DNA of 64,000 nucleotides from a candidate division FCPU426 bacterium (lineage in GTDB: Bacteria > Oederibacteriota > Muellerivitia > Muellerivitales > Muellerivitaceae): contig CAVRAL010000004.1 of the NCBI GenBank assembly GCA_963719085.1, positions 150,504 through 214,503 on the forward strand, written 5' to 3'. Each line of letters starts with the position of its first letter. The stretch's first letter is position 1. Both the position numbers and the translations under genes were made by a program. The notes below the pieces were generated by a model, which did no database searches, was not told where the DNA came from, and worked only from the letters and a program-made list of their open reading frames with translations. Shown piece by piece: positions 39,442-41,567 of the stretch.

Positions 39442-40206
39442 CTAAGCGGACGTGACCCAGCCATTTTCAACCACAGTCCGCCAAGCGCTTGGGAAAGAAC
39501 CCGGATTCGAAACGAAAATCTTTTCTTGGGCGATCGTTTCCAGCATCAAGGATCGCCTCAGGCCCTGAACCAGCGCCGCCGTCTCCATCTCGACCGGCAT
39601 CACCTGGGGTTCCCCCGCCCTGGCGAAAACCATCAGGGCCTCATTCCCCGGGACGAAAGGATTTTGGGGCAAGGCTTTCAACCCTTGGGTCGTAAAAATT
39701 TCCCAGGGACTAAAAAGATGGTGGGACGATTCGATCAAAGCAACCGAGCTTTTCAAGCGAAAGGCCGCCCCGCGGTCATGAATATCAGCCATCGACAGGC
39801 TGGTTTCCCCGGGCGCGTAAAAGGCGCGGTCCAATGCCCATTCAAGCCTCGCCACATCGGCAATATAGGGCCAAGGGCTGATCTCGGAACGCCCGGATAA
39901 AAAGTCACCCAGGCTTTCGCCGTAATGGGTCAAATCCGGGTTCGTTGAGGGATGGCGATAGATATATTCCCGGCCCAAAAAATTAAAATTGTTCTCCCCC
40001 AAAAGCGCCAGGCAAAAAGGATAGGTGTCCTTCAAAGCCTGAAGCATGCCGAAAATCAGGTTGGCGCGGTAAACCTTCATCCCGTTTCCCGGGTCCGGCT
40101 TGTCGCCGCTTAAAAAAAGACCGCGAATCTGTTGTTGCTGATCCGGCGGGACTTTAGGCGCGTAAACATAACGGATGAATTCTTTTTGGGATTGTTCAAG
40201 CGACAT
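39442..40206 (-). CDS. DUF2063-family partner protein of MNIO enzymes (BufC/MbnC-like)
   Basis: 254 aa. Overlaps the DUF692 gene by 11 nt. N-terminal LxxxFxxxVYAP pattern. Assigned mainly from the conserved DUF692-DUF2063 gene pairing. Confidence 0.6.
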   Translation of the reverse strand: MSLEQSQKEFIRYVYAPKVPPDQQQQIRGLFLSGDKPDPGNGMKVYRANLIFGMLQALKDTYPFCLALLGENNFNFLGREYIYRHPSTNPDLTHYGESLGDFLSGRSEISPWPYIADVARLEWALDRAFYAPGETSLSMADIHDRGAAFRLKSSVALIESSHHLFSPWEIFTTQGLKALPQNPFVPGNEALMVFARAGEPQVMPVEMETAALVQGLRRSLMLETIAQEKIFVSNPGSFPSAWRTVVENGWVTSA

Positions 40207-41023
40207 GGATTTTTTCTTCCAGGATGGATTGGGCCTTCCTTGACTCGGCGTAAAGCACGTCGAACTCGGGGATATTCAAGTCCCACTCAATCAGCGTCGG
40301 CACGCCTTGAAATCGCTTCACCGCGCGGCGGTAAAGATCCCACACCTCCTCGGCGATCGGCGCCCCATGGTTGTCGATCAAGATCCCGTCGGAGCGAAGA
40401 TGGCCGGCCAGATGCATTTGCTTGACCCGCGCCACGGGGATGGATTCCAGGTAGCGAACCGGGTCAAACCGTAAATTTTCCGAATTGACGAAAACATTAT
40501 TCACGTCCAACAACAGGTCGCAGTCGGCGGCTTGGGCCACCGCCGCGACGAATTCCCATTCTTCCATCTCGGCTTGGGCGAAATGGAGGTAGCCTGAAAG
40601 GTTTTCAATCAGGATCCGGCGCTTTAAAAGGTCTTGGACCCGCTGAATCCGCTCGGCGGTATGGCGGACGGCTTCTTGGGTAAAGGGCAAGGGCAAAAGA
40701 TCATGGGTTTGCAGGCCCTCCGCGCCGATCCAGCAAAGATGGTCCGAAACCCATTCGGGCTGGTAGCGGTCGATGAGTTCGGAAAGATTTTTAAAATAAT
40801 CGGCGTCGATCGGATCGATCGACCCTAGATTCATGCCCACGCCGTGGAACACCAGCGGGTATCGGGAACGGACCTGCGCCAAGGCCCGGTGCGGAACCAC
40901 ACCCGGGTTCATATAATTATCCGCCAGAACCTCGAACCAGGGAACTTCCGGCCGGGTTTCTAAAATGCGGGAAAGATGTCGGGAGCGAAGCCCCAGCCCC
41001 GCCCCCTTGATCCTGGAATCCAT
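40196..41023 (-). CDS. DUF692 multinuclear non-heme iron oxidative enzyme (MNIO; MbnB/BufB-like)
   Basis: Xylose-isomerase-like TIM-barrel family signature: N-terminal GLGLRSRHLSRI...VPWFEVLADNYM, HGVGMNLGS, WVSDHLCW. ATG confirmed, 8 nt after the precursor gene stop. Confidence 0.8.
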   Translation of the reverse strand: MDSRIKGAGLGLRSRHLSRILETRPEVPWFEVLADNYMNPGVVPHRALAQVRSRYPLVFHGVGMNLGSIDPIDADYFKNLSELIDRYQPEWVSDHLCWIGAEGLQTHDLLPLPFTQEAVRHTAERIQRVQDLLKRRILIENLSGYLHFAQAEMEEWEFVAAVAQAADCDLLLDVNNVFVNSENLRFDPVRYLESIPVARVKQMHLAGHLRSDGILIDNHGAPIAEEVWDLYRRAVKRFQGVPTLIEWDLNIPEFDVLYAESRKAQSILEEKIHVA

Positions 41024-41030
41024 ACGAAAC

Positions 41031-41360
41031 TTACATCGCCGCCGGAGTGGTGGACGGCGTGGCCGACATCATGGCGCCTTCCACATGGCCGCCCAACTTG
41101 TCGCAAACCCCGACCGGCAGGAAGATCCAGTCATTCGGATCATTGTCCACTTTGGACGTTCCCGCGCAGGCATGCGACTTGGTGGCGCAATCGTTCTTCC
41201 CGGCCTTGGCCACGCCGTAGCATTTTTCCGTCTTGACCATCTTGGTCCAAGGCTTCGCGTTGGCTTGGGTGGCCACGCTCGCCACACCGAAAGCCATCAG
41301 GCTCGCCAGGGCCGTCGTCGAGACCAGTTTCGGACGATCGGTGAAAATATTCGCTTTCAT
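41031..41360 (-). CDS. DUF2282-family Cys-containing secreted RiPP precursor (bufferin-like)
   Basis: Sec signal peptide ending ATQANA. Core [47 protein letters not shown] with the four-Cys DUF2282 spacing. ATG and an AAGGAG ribosome-binding site confirmed. Confidence 0.75.
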   Translation of the reverse strand: [109 protein letters not shown]

Positions 41361-41394
41361 AACACGCTCCTTGAAATTTTTAAGGCGGCTCCAC

Positions 41395-41423
41395 TTGACG
41401 TGAACCCGGCCTGAACCAATATA
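41395..41423 (+). promoter_or_regulatory. Sigma-70-like promoter candidate (TTGACG-17 nt-AATATA) for the YceI gene, inside the divergent intergenic region shared with the bufferin-like operon
   Basis: Hexamers with a 17-nt spacer. About 140 nt of leader lies before the ATG at 41568. Unverified. Confidence 0.3.
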
Positions 41424-41567
41424 CCCCCGGGGTTTTAAAAAGTTACGTCGAAGAGCGTTAATCCGGGGCTAATTGAAATGAACCCCCGGGTAACCCTTTG
41501 GCGGCCTTCCCCGTAGTAGCATGTCAGTTGGCTGGCCGGTCATTCTCAAAATTTAAGGGAGTTTATC

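What the first reader, a model, noticed from the sequence alone, without database searches (positions are those of the whole stretch)
39442..41567. Bufferin-type RiPP locus: DUF2282 Cys-rich precursor, DUF692 (MNIO) oxidase and DUF2063 partner
Seen in the sequence: three tightly packed minus-strand genes.
- Gene 1 (41031..41360) encodes a 109-aa protein with a Sec signal peptide (…[11 protein letters not shown]). Its core is [47 protein letters not shown], with four Cys in DUF2282 spacing, plus an unusual 20-aa tail, [20 protein letters not shown].
- Gene 2 (40196..41023) starts 8 nt later and has the DUF692 xylose-isomerase-like TIM-barrel signature (GLGLRSRH…VPWFEVLADNYM, HGVGMNLGS, WVSDHLCW).
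- Gene 3 (39442..40206) overlaps gene 2 by 11 nt and is DUF2063-like.

Established knowledge: DUF692 enzymes are multinuclear non-heme iron oxidases (MbnB of methanobactin, TglH, ChrH). Together with DUF2063 partners they convert Cys residues of DUF2282 'bufferin' precursors into thiooxazole-type heterocycles, giving periplasmic copper-binding peptides. This was described only recently, in Caulobacter.

Inference: this is an uncharacterised member of that family.
- It lacks the DoxX gene often found in such operons.
- It carries a C-terminal His/Met-containing extension that could add metal ligands.
- It shares a divergent promoter region with a YceI-family periplasmic gene.
- It lies 210 nt upstream of a Ser/Thr kinase-WD40 / FHA-cyclase pair.
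Basis: partly seen in the sequence, partly recalled or inferred. Interest (0 to 1): 0.85.

Follow-up and report, generated by a model that had tools for sequence, protein, structure and literature searches.

The report
Bufferin copper-peptide operon with YceI partner
This is a genuine but ordinary member of the recently described bufferin family (a secreted cysteine-rich peptide, its iron oxidase and a helper protein, thought to buffer copper in the periplasm); its one modestly new feature is that it travels with, and seems to share a promoter type with, a YceI lipocalin gene instead of the usual DoxX gene.

Summary
Three packed minus-strand genes encode a DUF2282/BufA1 precursor (Pfam E=7e-24), an MNIO enzyme above NCBI's BufB equivalog cut-off (362.6 vs 310 bits), and a DUF2063 partner whose confident model matches TglI and NGO1945. 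The precursor has a signal peptide and four Cys in invariant family spacing. All nine MbnB iron ligands are conserved in the enzyme. The interpretation (Buf1-type bufferin cluster) is supported, and current pipelines would annotate it automatically.

The "special" features are weaker than claimed:
- DoxX-less clusters are common (15 of 41 BufA1 loci).
- Longer Met-bearing tails recur in the family (16 of 115 relatives).
- The kinase/cyclase pair is only lineage synteny.

YceI|BufABC is kept in two lineages with unrelated flanks, and YceI is absent from 156 other bufferin loci. The motif GTAAC[CT]-N16-18-GTA occurs only twice in 64 kb, once facing bufA and once facing yceI. The sister lineage adds MsrA and includes 2-Cys precursors that lost the disulfide pair.

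Verdict: new member of a known kind, with a possible accessory-gene variant. Interest is low to moderate.

The parts
41031..41360 (-). bufA: 109-aa BufA1/DUF2282 bufferin precursor (stop codon included)
   Evidence: ORF. PF10048 E=7.3e-24. 1401 homologs found. Cys47, Cys58, Cys65 and Cys86 are invariant in 111 sequences.
41256..41360 (-). Predicted Sec signal peptide, residues 1-35. It has a K/R n-region, a hydrophobic core at residues 14-29 and an A-N-A motif before the predicted cleavage site.
   Evidence: Hydropathy profile and AXA rule. AXA-type sites are conserved in relatives. This is a heuristic; no dedicated predictor was run.
41088..41228 (-). DUF2282 core, residues 45-91. By homology, Cys58 (41187-41189) and Cys65 (41166-41168) are the thiooxazole targets, and Cys47 (41220-41222) with Cys86 (41103-41105) is the disulfide pair.
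   Evidence: Pfam envelope 45-91. Spacing of 7 for CII-CIII and 21 for CIII-CIV in 114 and 115 of 115 relatives. Cys roles are taken from PMC11626156 and PMC12452194.
41034..41087 (-). C-terminal extension [18 protein letters not shown], residues 92-109: one His, a Met-Met pair and a terminal Met
   Evidence: The tail after Cys IV is 23 aa against a family median of 13. The same His/Met-Met/terminal-Met layout appears in lineage B (L172: GGHVMMDSKKSMSAATPASM). The model has pLDDT below 50 for residues 100-109.
40196..41023 (-). bufB: 275-aa MNIO (DUF692) bufferin maturase
   Evidence: PF05114 E=2e-107. NF050167 MNIO_BufB scores 362.6 against a cut-off of 310. Ligands H60, H95, E140, D173, N176, H204, D217, H219 and E246 correspond to the MbnB ligand set.
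39442..40206 (-). bufC: 254-aa DUF2063 partner/chaperone with an RRE-like C-terminal domain
   Evidence: PF09836 E=3.8e-17. AF2 model has pLDDT 91.4. Foldseek matches TglI 8hi7_A at E=6.4e-7 and NGO1945 3dee at E=9.2e-5.
41568..42164 (+). yceI: 198-aa periplasmic YceI-family lipocalin, divergently transcribed. Proposed accessory gene of this bufferin sub-clade.
   Evidence: PF04264 E=5.9e-52. PDB matches 1wub and 1y0g. Adjacent to BufABC in lineages A and B, whose flanks are otherwise unrelated. In the same operon in L027. Zero YceI in 156 other bufferin loci.
41421..41446 (-). Promoter-like element facing bufA: GTAACT-N16-GTATAT, about 58 nt upstream of the ATG
   Evidence: Conserved in 10 of 10 loci of lineages A and B. 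One of only 2 matches in the window, against 0.25 expected.
41490..41516 (+). Matching promoter-like element facing yceI: GTAACC-N17-(C)GTAGTA, about 49 nt upstream of the ATG
   Evidence: The second of the 2 window matches. Present on the yceI strand in at least 5 of 10 clade loci.
41367..41371 (-). AGGAG ribosome-binding site of bufA
   Evidence: Sequence. Lies in a block that is invariant across the relatives.
39361..39429 (-). Two terminator-like hairpins with T-runs just after the bufC stop (39415-39429 and 39361-39376)
   Evidence: The count over the region is not above chance, so only the position is suggestive.

Best explanation
Window 39442-41360 (minus strand) is a three-gene bufABC operon of the Buf1 (DUF2282) bufferin family, in an uncultured diderm bacterium.

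Proposed mechanism:
1. bufA is translated into a 109-aa precursor with a Sec signal peptide.
2. In the cytoplasm the multinuclear iron oxidase BufB acts on it, held by its DUF2063/RRE-type partner BufC. It uses O2 to convert the two central cysteines (Cys58, Cys65) into 5-thiooxazole heterocycles.
3. The Sec system exports the peptide, and the signal peptide is cut after Ala35.
4. Cys47 and Cys86 form a disulfide. The resulting 74-residue mini-protein is about 7.75 kDa, predicted to be 10 Da lighter than the unmodified peptide.
5. This protein binds excess copper in the periplasm through the thiooxazoles.
6. A flexible His/Met tail may add soft ligands.
7. A divergent yceI lipocalin gene is part of the same module and appears to be driven by the same promoter type (GTAAC-N16-18-GTA, ECF-sigma-like).

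Shown here:
- Gene identities, Cys pattern, iron ligands and partner fold.
- Conservation of the module and of the promoter motif.

Inferred by homology:
- The thiooxazole chemistry, the disulfide and the export route.

Inferred or speculative:
- Copper as the metal, the tail's role, YceI's role and the identity of the sigma factor.

The confidence of 0.85 refers to the core claim, a Buf1-type bufferin operon making a Sec-exported, MNIO-modified Cys-derived metallophore. Copper specificity would rate about 0.6 and YceI co-regulation about 0.5.
For: Family membership:
- Pfam and NCBIfam hits, including the BufB equivalog above its curated cut-off.
- 1401 DUF2282 homologs.
- Four Cys invariant, with fixed 7/21 spacing.

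Enzyme and partner:
- Nine of nine MbnB iron ligands are conserved in BufB and in 88 relatives (ligand list from PMC9060507).
- The BufC model (pLDDT 91) matches TglI and NGO1945.

Export and cell type:
- Signal-peptide features.
- Diderm markers in the window: OMP beta-barrel proteins and an ABC ATPase gene beside rpoN.

Operon structure:
- Tight coupling of the three genes (7-nt gap, 11-nt overlap) and an invariant RBS.

Published biochemistry of the family:
- Central Cys become 5-thiooxazoles, and Cys I/IV form a disulfide.
- BufB and BufC are required, and DoxX is dispensable.
- Copper binding is documented (PMC11626156, PMC12452194).

YceI linkage:
-.

Shared promoter motif:
-.
Against: - No experiment exists for this locus. 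The chemistry and the metal are extrapolated from Caulobacter and relatives that are only about 50% identical.
- The precursor model is low-confidence (pLDDT 58), so the Cys47-Cys86 proximity is not independently supported.
- No copper-responsive regulator, ECF sigma/anti-sigma pair, or copper efflux or oxidase gene was found near the cluster or among the window ORFs scanned. Not every window ORF was profiled.
- The promoter motif was defined from these same sequences. The sigma-70 scanner found no canonical promoter.
- YceI-family proteins are otherwise tied to isoprenoid/quinone binding and lipid peroxidation, not to copper (PMC9113575).
Confidence: 0.85

Rival explanations
1. Same enzymology, but the physiological role is envelope oxidative-stress defence rather than copper buffering. 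The thiooxazole/Met-rich peptide would act as a sacrificial redox or ROS/HOCl scavenger, or handle another soft metal. It would work alongside the YceI lipocalin (lipid peroxyl radical detoxification) and, in the sister lineage, MsrA (methionine sulfoxide repair).
For: - YceI is the conserved accessory gene here in place of DoxX.
- MsrA directly follows bufC in lineage B.
- YceI-family BcnA protects against lipid peroxidation (PMC9113575).
- No copper gene lies nearby.
- The survey paper itself suggests roles beyond copper, citing MerC fusions and DoxX with oxidative or sulfur stress.
Against: - All characterised bufferins bind copper and protect against it (PMC11626156).
- Copper stress itself produces lipid peroxidation and Met oxidation, so the accessory genes fit the copper model equally well.
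- The MsrA proteins lack signal peptides (154-164 aa), so they cannot repair a periplasmic peptide.
- The cytochrome b561 partner of BcnA-type systems is absent from every clade locus examined.
Confidence: 0.15
2. The YceI adjacency and the shared motif are historical accident. YceI would simply be a neighbouring gene inherited from the common ancestor of two related uncultured lineages, and the cluster would be a plain DoxX-less bufABC operon with no accessory gene.
For: - Lineages A and B may belong to one higher taxon, so the adjacency may represent only one or two independent events.
- L086, a lineage-B member, has lost YceI without losing BufABC.
- The yceI-facing motif is detected in only 5 of 10 loci with the strict pattern.
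- 12 of 41 BufA1 loci have no accessory gene at all.
Against: - The adjacency survives complete turnover of all other flanking genes, at 41% BufC and 60% YceI identity.
- An independent Omnitrophica MAG has yceI in the same operon, 8 nt upstream of the precursor gene.
- A Legionella bufferin cluster with YceI is on record (PMC12452194 Fig. S4).
- There is no YceI in 1.68 Mb of other bufferin flanks.
- The only two motif copies in 64 kb face the two genes.
Confidence: 0.25
3. The bufferin operon is functionally coupled to the downstream Ser/Thr kinase-WD40 and FHA-cyclase genes, for example with the peptide or its metal state feeding a signalling pathway.
For: - The order BufC, kinase, cyclase is kept in the lineage-A relatives L082-L084.
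[quoted passage not shown] S4).
Against: - In L169/170 three unrelated genes sit between bufC and the kinase.
- Lineage B and L086 have no kinase or cyclase.
- A 209-nt gap with two terminator-like hairpins follows bufC.
- The helicase, PGI and PTS genes on the other side are equally syntenic, so this is ordinary genome collinearity.
Confidence: 0.05

Closest known systems
Caulobacter vibrioides Buf1 cluster (bufA1B1C1D1, CCNA_03363-03366; PMC11626156)
   Same: - DUF2282 precursor with a Sec signal peptide and four Cys.
- Adjacent MNIO (BufB) and DUF2063 (BufC) genes in the same order.
- The same predicted chemistry: two 5-thiooxazoles plus one disulfide, giving a periplasmic copper-binding mini-protein.
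   Different: - No DoxX (bufD) gene.
- A tail about 10 aa longer, carrying His and Met.
- A divergent yceI gene with a matching promoter box.
- An uncultured, unnamed lineage.
Buf2 / BufA2 (Buf_6/12Cys) bufferin clusters (PMC11626156, PMC12452194)
   Same: - BufB/BufC pair, with DoxX often absent.
- The window's BufB is as similar (45-55%) to BufA2-associated enzymes as to other BufA1-associated ones.
   Different: - The precursor has 4 Cys, not 6 or 12.
- The NCBIfam BufA2 model scores only 29.5 bits against a cut-off of 60.
HvfABC / oxazolin (Buf_EGKCG) system of Haemophilus influenzae (PMC11252979)
   Same: - An MNIO plus a DUF2063-type partner modifying Cys of a signal-peptide-bearing protein that binds copper.
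- The closest solved MNIO structure, 3bww from Haemophilus somnus, matches at E=1.5e-47.
   Different: - The HvfB model scores below its cut-off (275 vs 360), and HvfC is very weak (24.7 vs 142).
- The precursor has no EGKCG repeats.
Methanobactin MbnABC and TglHI (3-thiaglutamate) MNIO systems
   Same: - TIM-barrel MNIO with the identical iron-ligand set.
- The partner protein shares its fold with TglI and, weakly, with MbnC.
   Different: - MbnB model scores 54.7 against 325.
- Different precursors: no MbnA or TglA.
- Those products are cytoplasmic or exported small molecules rather than Sec-exported mini-proteins.
- The reaction outcomes differ.
Legionella pneumophila subsp. fraseri bufferin BGC CA927_RS07990 with YceI and cytochrome b (PMC12452194, Fig. 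S4)
   Same: A bufferin-type cluster that contains a YceI gene.
   Different: - The Legionella cluster also has a cytochrome b, and none is seen here.
- It was reported as a single curiosity, not as a conserved module.
- The precursor type and gene orientation were not compared.
BcnA-LcoA (YceI lipocalin + cytochrome b561) lipid-peroxyl detoxification system (PMC9113575)
   Same: The neighbour gene is a secreted YceI-family lipocalin.
   Different: - No cytochrome b561 partner lies adjacent.
- The gene is paired instead with a RiPP metallophore operon.

Membership tests
Buf1 (BufA1/DUF2282) bufferin biosynthetic cluster | The precursor matches the DUF2282/BufA1 profile (PF10048) above the gathering threshold. 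| tested here: met
   84 bits against a cut-off of 22.4, E=7.3e-24.
Buf1 (BufA1/DUF2282) bufferin biosynthetic cluster | Four conserved Cys in family spacing: CI, then CII-x6-CIII, then CIV. | tested here: met
   C47, C58, C65 and C86 are invariant in a 111-sequence alignment. Position differences of 7 and 21 are found in 114 and 115 of 115 relatives.
Buf1 (BufA1/DUF2282) bufferin biosynthetic cluster | [quoted passage not shown] | tested here: met
   Basic n-region, hydrophobic core at residues 14-29 and A-N-A at 33-35. AXA sites are conserved in relatives. This is a heuristic only; no SignalP-type tool was available.
Buf1 (BufA1/DUF2282) bufferin biosynthetic cluster | An adjacent MNIO enzyme of the BufB type. 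| tested here: met
   NF050167 MNIO_BufB equivalog scores 362.6 bits against a cut-off of 310. PF05114 E=2e-107. The gene starts 7 nt after bufA.
Buf1 (BufA1/DUF2282) bufferin biosynthetic cluster | The MNIO iron-ligand set (His, His, Glu, Asp, Asn, His, Asp, His, Glu). | tested here: met
   H60, H95, E140, D173, N176, H204, D217, H219 and E246 align with MbnB His54, His90, Glu133, Asp163, Asn166, His192, Asp208, His210 and Glu239. E246 is placed from the 7dz9, 3bww and TglH alignments, because the pairwise 7tcr alignment is offset by 2 at its end.
Buf1 (BufA1/DUF2282) bufferin biosynthetic cluster | A DUF2063 partner (BufC) with an RRE-like C-terminal domain. | tested here: met
   PF09836 scores 62.8 bits against 27.2. 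The model (pLDDT 91) matches TglI and NGO1945 over its full length, and RRE TbiB1 weakly on the C-terminal part.
Buf1 (BufA1/DUF2282) bufferin biosynthetic cluster | A DoxX (BufD) gene in the cluster. This is frequent but not required. | tested here: not met
   No DoxX-like ORF in the 64 kb. This is not disqualifying: DoxX is dispensable (PMC11626156) and absent from 15 of 41 BufA1 loci.
Buf1 (BufA1/DUF2282) bufferin biosynthetic cluster | ECF sigma / NrsF anti-sigma genes in the cluster. These are found in some Buf1 BGCs. | tested here: not met
   None next to the cluster or among the scanned window ORFs. Not every window ORF was profiled. The feature is optional according to PMC12452194.
Buf1 (BufA1/DUF2282) bufferin biosynthetic cluster | Central Cys converted to 5-thiooxazoles, and the mature peptide binding copper. 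| not testable with these tools
   Requires expression, MS/NMR and metal-binding assays.
Buf2 (BufA2, Buf_6/12Cys) bufferins | The precursor matches the BufA2 equivalog and has 6 or 12 Cys. | tested here: not met
   NF050166 scores 29.5 bits against a cut-off of 60. The precursor has only 4 Cys.
HvfABC / oxazolin (EGKCG) system | HvfB- and HvfC-type enzymes and an EGKCG-repeat precursor. | tested here: not met
   HvfB scores 275.3 against 360 and HvfC 24.7 against 142. There is no EGKCG motif in the precursor.
Methanobactin MbnABC | An MbnB equivalog, an MbnC partner and an MbnA precursor. | tested here: not met
   MbnB TIGR04159 scores 54.7 against 325. The MbnC fold match is only E=1.0.
BcnA-LcoA type YceI lipocalin system | A YceI lipocalin genetically linked to a cytochrome b561. 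| tested here: not met
   The YceI domain is present. No cytochrome b family appears among the Pfam-annotated genes around YceI in any clade locus.

The most novel reading that the evidence does not exclude
The window represents a distinct Buf1 sub-family, found in uncultured wetland and peat bacteria, with four linked features:
- The DoxX accessory is replaced by a co-regulated periplasmic YceI lipocalin.
- The sister lineage also has a downstream MsrA.
- Both divergent genes are driven by twin ECF-like GTAAC-N17-GTA promoters.
- The precursor carries a selected His/Met tail ending in Met.

That would couple periplasmic copper buffering to protection of the envelope against lipid and methionine oxidation. 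Natural 2-Cys variants in the same clade would show that the disulfide is dispensable.
Probability: 0.3. Interest if true: 0.5.

Novelty: new member of a known kind. Interest (0 to 1): 0.3.

Why it matters
The locus adds one more bufferin cluster to a family already known to be very widespread, so on its own it changes little.

Its value lies in leads for bufferin specialists:
- A recurrent YceI-bufABC module with a shared promoter box suggests an unrecognised accessory partner and regulon.
- The MsrA linkage and the Met-terminated tails point to methionine chemistry.
- The 2-Cys relatives are a natural experiment on whether the Cys I-IV disulfide is needed.

Each lead is cheaply testable by co-expression and mass spectrometry.

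Tried and rejected
- Rfam scan of the whole window: no RNA family, so no riboswitch or rRNA for taxonomy.
- Taxonomy attempts:
  - MetK homologs at 81-99% identity are labelled only "[bacterium]", then identity drops to about 70%.
  - The exact-sequence cluster look-up gave no organism names.
  - The exact BufC is on a 1.29-Mb NCBI contig, but only short Logan contigs were retrievable.
- Sigma-70 promoter scanner: zero hits in the region. The conserved boxes have a non-canonical -35.
- A CueR/MerR-type operator was considered for the CCCCGGGG dyad between the boxes. It was rejected because the left half is not conserved in relatives.
- AlphaFold2 model of the precursor: low confidence (pLDDT 58), so no fold search and no disulfide-geometry claim.
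- Sequence search of BufC against the PDB: nothing. Fold comparison was needed instead.
- P0004's aberrant Cys III to Ser change and odd tail come from a nanopore contig in which BufB and the kinase are also fragmented. It is treated as sequencing error, not biology.
- Plus-strand ORFs inside the region (for example 40965-41414) are shadow ORFs of the three genes.
- The kinase/cyclase linkage was rejected.

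
Full report
OBSERVATION. The three minus-strand ORFs exist exactly as described: 41031-41360 (109 aa), 40196-41023 (275 aa) and 39442-40206 (254 aa). The sequence shows an AGGAG ribosome-binding site 7 nt before the bufA ATG. There is a 7-nt gap between bufA and bufB and an 11-nt overlap between bufB and bufC.
- PF10048 DUF2282: E=7.3e-24.
- PF05114 MbnB_TglH_ChrH: E=2e-107.
- PF09836 DUF2063: E=3.8e-17.
- NCBIfam equivalog MNIO_BufB: 362.6 bits against a curated cut-off of 310.
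- The HvfB, ApyH, MbnB and ChrH models all fall below their cut-offs.

The neighbours are also as stated. YceI lies at 41568-42164(+) and a kinase-WD40 protein at 35756-39232(-). An FHA + adenylate/guanylate cyclase protein lies at 34074-35906(-).

WHAT IT IS. According to the literature, DUF2282 proteins are the Buf1 bufferins.
- The two central Cys become 5-thiooxazoles, and the outer pair forms a disulfide.
- BufB (an MNIO) and BufC (DUF2063) are both required, while DoxX is dispensable.
- The product binds copper in the periplasm (PMC11626156; PMC12452194).

I tested each defining feature here.
- Cysteines. The precursor search returned 1401 homologs. In a 111-sequence alignment Cys47, Cys58, Cys65 and Cys86 are invariant. 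The Cys II-III and III-IV spacings (7 and 21) are essentially fixed.
- Signal peptide. The N-terminus has a basic n-region, a hydrophobic core and an A-N-A site at residues 33-35. Cleavage there predicts a 74-residue mature peptide of 7756.9 Da before modification. This is a heuristic, not a dedicated predictor.
- Iron ligands. BufB retains every ligand defined crystallographically for MbnB (PMC9060507). H60, H95, E140, D173, N176, H204, D217, H219 and E246 correspond to His54, His90, Glu133, Asp163, Asn166, His192, Asp208, His210 and Glu239. These positions are 98-100% conserved in 88 relatives.
- Partner. BufC has no sequence match in the PDB. Its AlphaFold2 model is confident (pLDDT 91.4) and matches TglI, the partner of the MNIO TglH (8hi7_A, E=6.4e-7, TM 0.63). 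It also matches NGO1945, the founding DUF2063 structure (3dee, E=9.2e-5). Weak matches to MbnC and the RRE protein TbiB1 fall on the C-terminal part.
- Cell envelope. OMP beta-barrel genes and an ABC ATPase gene next to rpoN indicate a diderm cell, so a periplasm exists.

The cluster is therefore a bona fide Buf1-type bufABC operon, one that current annotation pipelines would name automatically.

THE CLAIMED PECULIARITIES.
1. DoxX. An iterative HMM built from Pfam-verified DoxX seeds finds none among all window ORFs of 45 aa or more. This is ordinary. Among 41 BufA1 metagenome loci with enough downstream sequence, 26 have DoxX after bufC, 12 have nothing and 3 have MsrA.
2. Tail. After Cys IV the family median is 13 residues and the query has 23. 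However, 16 of 115 relatives have 18 or more, often Met-rich, and 30 of 115 end in Met.
   - Within the query's own clade the layout GG-His...Met-Met...Ala-x-Met-COOH recurs. The window has [20 protein letters not shown], and lineage-B L172 has GGHVMMDSKKSMSAATPASM.
   - The tail therefore appears to be selected, though it is not unique.
   - The precursor model is poor (pLDDT 58). It shows only the expected two-stranded sheet and a tail with pLDDT below 50. A ligand role remains inference.
3. Kinase and cyclase. The order is kept in the close relatives L082-L084, but the helicase, PGI and PTS genes on the other side are equally syntenic.
   - In L169/170 three unrelated genes separate bufC from the kinase.
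   - The sister lineage has no kinase or cyclase.
   - Terminator-like hairpins follow the bufC stop.
   - I find no support for functional coupling.

THE YceI MODULE. The loci whose precursors are closest to the query fall into two lineages.
- Lineage A comprises the window, L001, L082-85, L087 and L169/170. Its order is helicase, YceI (divergent), BufA-B-C, then kinase and cyclase.
- Lineage B comprises L089-91 and L171-173. Its order is YceI (divergent), BufA-B-C, MsrA, an optional response regulator, a SET-domain gene, then FlgE. L086 belongs to lineage B but lacks YceI.

A BLASTP comparison of all ORFs shows that L089-91 share nothing with the 64-kb window apart from the module genes: YceI (about 60% identity), BufB (63-66%) and BufC (41%), with BufA recognised in both by the clade HMM. 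In an Omnitrophica MAG (L027), yceI lies 8 nt upstream of a 6-Cys precursor gene and is followed by bufB and bufC on the same strand. By contrast, no YceI occurs in the 156 other bufferin loci retrieved, which total 1.68 Mb. The only literature trace I found is a figure legend noting one Legionella bufferin cluster with "a YceI protein and a cytochrome B protein" (PMC12452194, Fig. S4).

Phylogenetic footprinting of the divergent intergenic region adds a second argument.
- GTAACT-N16/17-GTAT(A/C)T precedes bufA in 10 of 10 loci of both lineages, 43-84 nt before the ATG.
- The inverted copy GTAACC-N17/18-(C)GTA precedes yceI in at least 5 of 10 loci.
- In the window, GTAACY-N15-18-GTAK occurs only twice in 64 kb on both strands, at 41421-41446(-) and 41490-41516(+). 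The expectation is 0.25, and 3 of 100 dinucleotide shuffles reach 2.
- Caveat: the motif was derived from these sequences, so this test is partly circular.
- An "AAC" -35 box with a "CGT/GTA" -10 box is typical of ECF sigma promoters (my own knowledge). ECF sigma/anti-sigma genes accompany some Buf1 clusters (PMC12452194).
- No sigma gene was found next to this cluster or among the window ORFs I profiled.

I therefore propose, as an inference, that yceI and bufABC are co-regulated.

MECHANISM. The steps run as follows: precursor synthesis, then cytoplasmic oxidation of Cys58 and Cys65 to 5-thiooxazoles by BufB-BufC. Sec export and cleavage after Ala35 follow, then formation of the Cys47-Cys86 disulfide, and finally copper chelation in the periplasm.
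- Gene identity and catalytic competence are shown here.
- The chemistry, the disulfide and the metal are extrapolated from characterised homologs.
- The thiooxazole versus oxazolone/thioamide question has been debated. Recent preprints favour the thiooxazole (titles listed).
- YceI proteins bind polyisoprenoids or ubiquinone-8 and, together with cytochrome b561, protect the envelope from lipid peroxyl radicals (PMC9113575; PDB relatives).
- A plausible but speculative role here is to limit copper-driven lipid peroxidation, or to supply a quinone-linked function that DoxX provides elsewhere.
- The lineage-B MsrA proteins have no signal peptide. If they are linked at all, they would act before export.

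OTHER POINTS.
- The closest species-representative BufB enzymes (45-55% identity) mostly sit next to 6- or 12-Cys BufA2 precursors. BufA1-associated enzymes outside the clade are equally distant. BufB similarity therefore does not predict the precursor type, which is consistent with the published sequence-similarity network.
- The source organism could not be named. MetK relatives at 81-99% identity are all labelled "[bacterium]".

VERDICT. The locus is a new member of a known, recently described and already widely catalogued family. The tail and the absence of DoxX are minor points, and the kinase/cyclase link is not supported. The conserved and apparently co-regulated YceI partner is the only feature a specialist might find new, together with MsrA and the 2-Cys precursors in the sister lineage. 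Interest: 0.3.

Noticed in passing
L089:5959-6309, L090:3904-4242, L091:5989-6291, L171:4871-5173; proteins P0011, P0012, P0014, P0021: Natural 2-Cys BufA1 variants. Cys I is replaced by Val (Ala in P0021), and Cys IV by Ser or Ala in the same sequences. Cys II and III are kept. In the four loci listed (L089-L091, L171) the gene sits in a complete YceI|BufABC-MsrA cluster. The published survey describes Buf1 precursors as having four conserved Cys. This paired loss fits the proposed Cys I-IV disulfide and suggests that it is dispensable.
   Followed up: partly
L086:7468-7932, L089:7949-8413, L090:6227-6709, L091:7898-8392, L171:6915-7379, L172:6872-7339: A methionine sulfoxide reductase MsrA gene (PF01625, E=2e-66 for L171) directly follows bufC throughout the sister lineage, whose precursors have Met-terminated or Met-rich tails. 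The MsrA proteins are 154-164 aa with no signal peptide. MsrA is not mentioned in the survey paper or its supplements.
   Followed up: partly
L070:11381-12535: A single 384-aa ORF downstream of BufC hits both the DoxX and the MsrA profiles (E=1.8e-58 and 4.2e-74). This suggests a possible DoxX-MsrA fusion in an Acidobacteria MAG.
   Followed up: no
L027:8944-11580: An Omnitrophica MAG carries yceI, a 6-Cys precursor, bufB and bufC on one strand, with only 8 nt between yceI and the precursor gene. The precursor is borderline between DUF2282 (21.9 bits against a cut-off of 22.4) and the BufA2 type.
   Followed up: partly
L102:2783-4552 and L110:2904-4601: Single long ORFs that hit both the BufB and the BufC profiles, suggesting possible BufB-BufC fusion proteins.
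   Followed up: no
L166:591-2749: Five consecutive DUF2282 precursor ORFs lie upstream of one bufB. This is an extreme case of the tandem-precursor arrangement mentioned in PMC12452194.
   Followed up: no
window:42445-43500 (minus strand): The DEAD-box helicase (PF00270/PF00271, N-terminal 342 aa) carries a C-terminal extension of about 280 aa that is rich in Arg, Gly, Pro and Ser. This coincides with a local GC peak of 0.68 against about 0.55 for the surroundings. The tail length varies between relatives: the gene product is 473-656 aa in L082, L083 and L169.
   Followed up: no
L082:10001-11073 and 12269-15629: This contig is a nanopore assembly (record name ending _np1212). In it BufB is truncated to 249 aa and the kinase is split into three genes. 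P0004's Cys III to Ser change and its odd tail therefore look like sequencing errors rather than real variation.
   Followed up: partly
window:35756-35906: The longest ORF of the FHA-cyclase gene (TTG start at 35906) overlaps the 3' end of the kinase-WD40 gene by 151 nt. In relatives the cyclase gene overlaps the kinase gene by only 4 nt (L083) or starts 4 nt after its end (L169), so the true start is probably an internal codon. The kinase-cyclase pair itself is conserved across lineage A.
   Followed up: no
L002-L081: Most of the 80 closest species-representative BufB homologs (45-55% identity) are preceded by 6- or 12-Cys BufA2-type precursors. Only L002, a Bdellovibrionaceae MAG at 58%, has a 4-Cys DUF2282 precursor like the window's.
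   Followed up: partly
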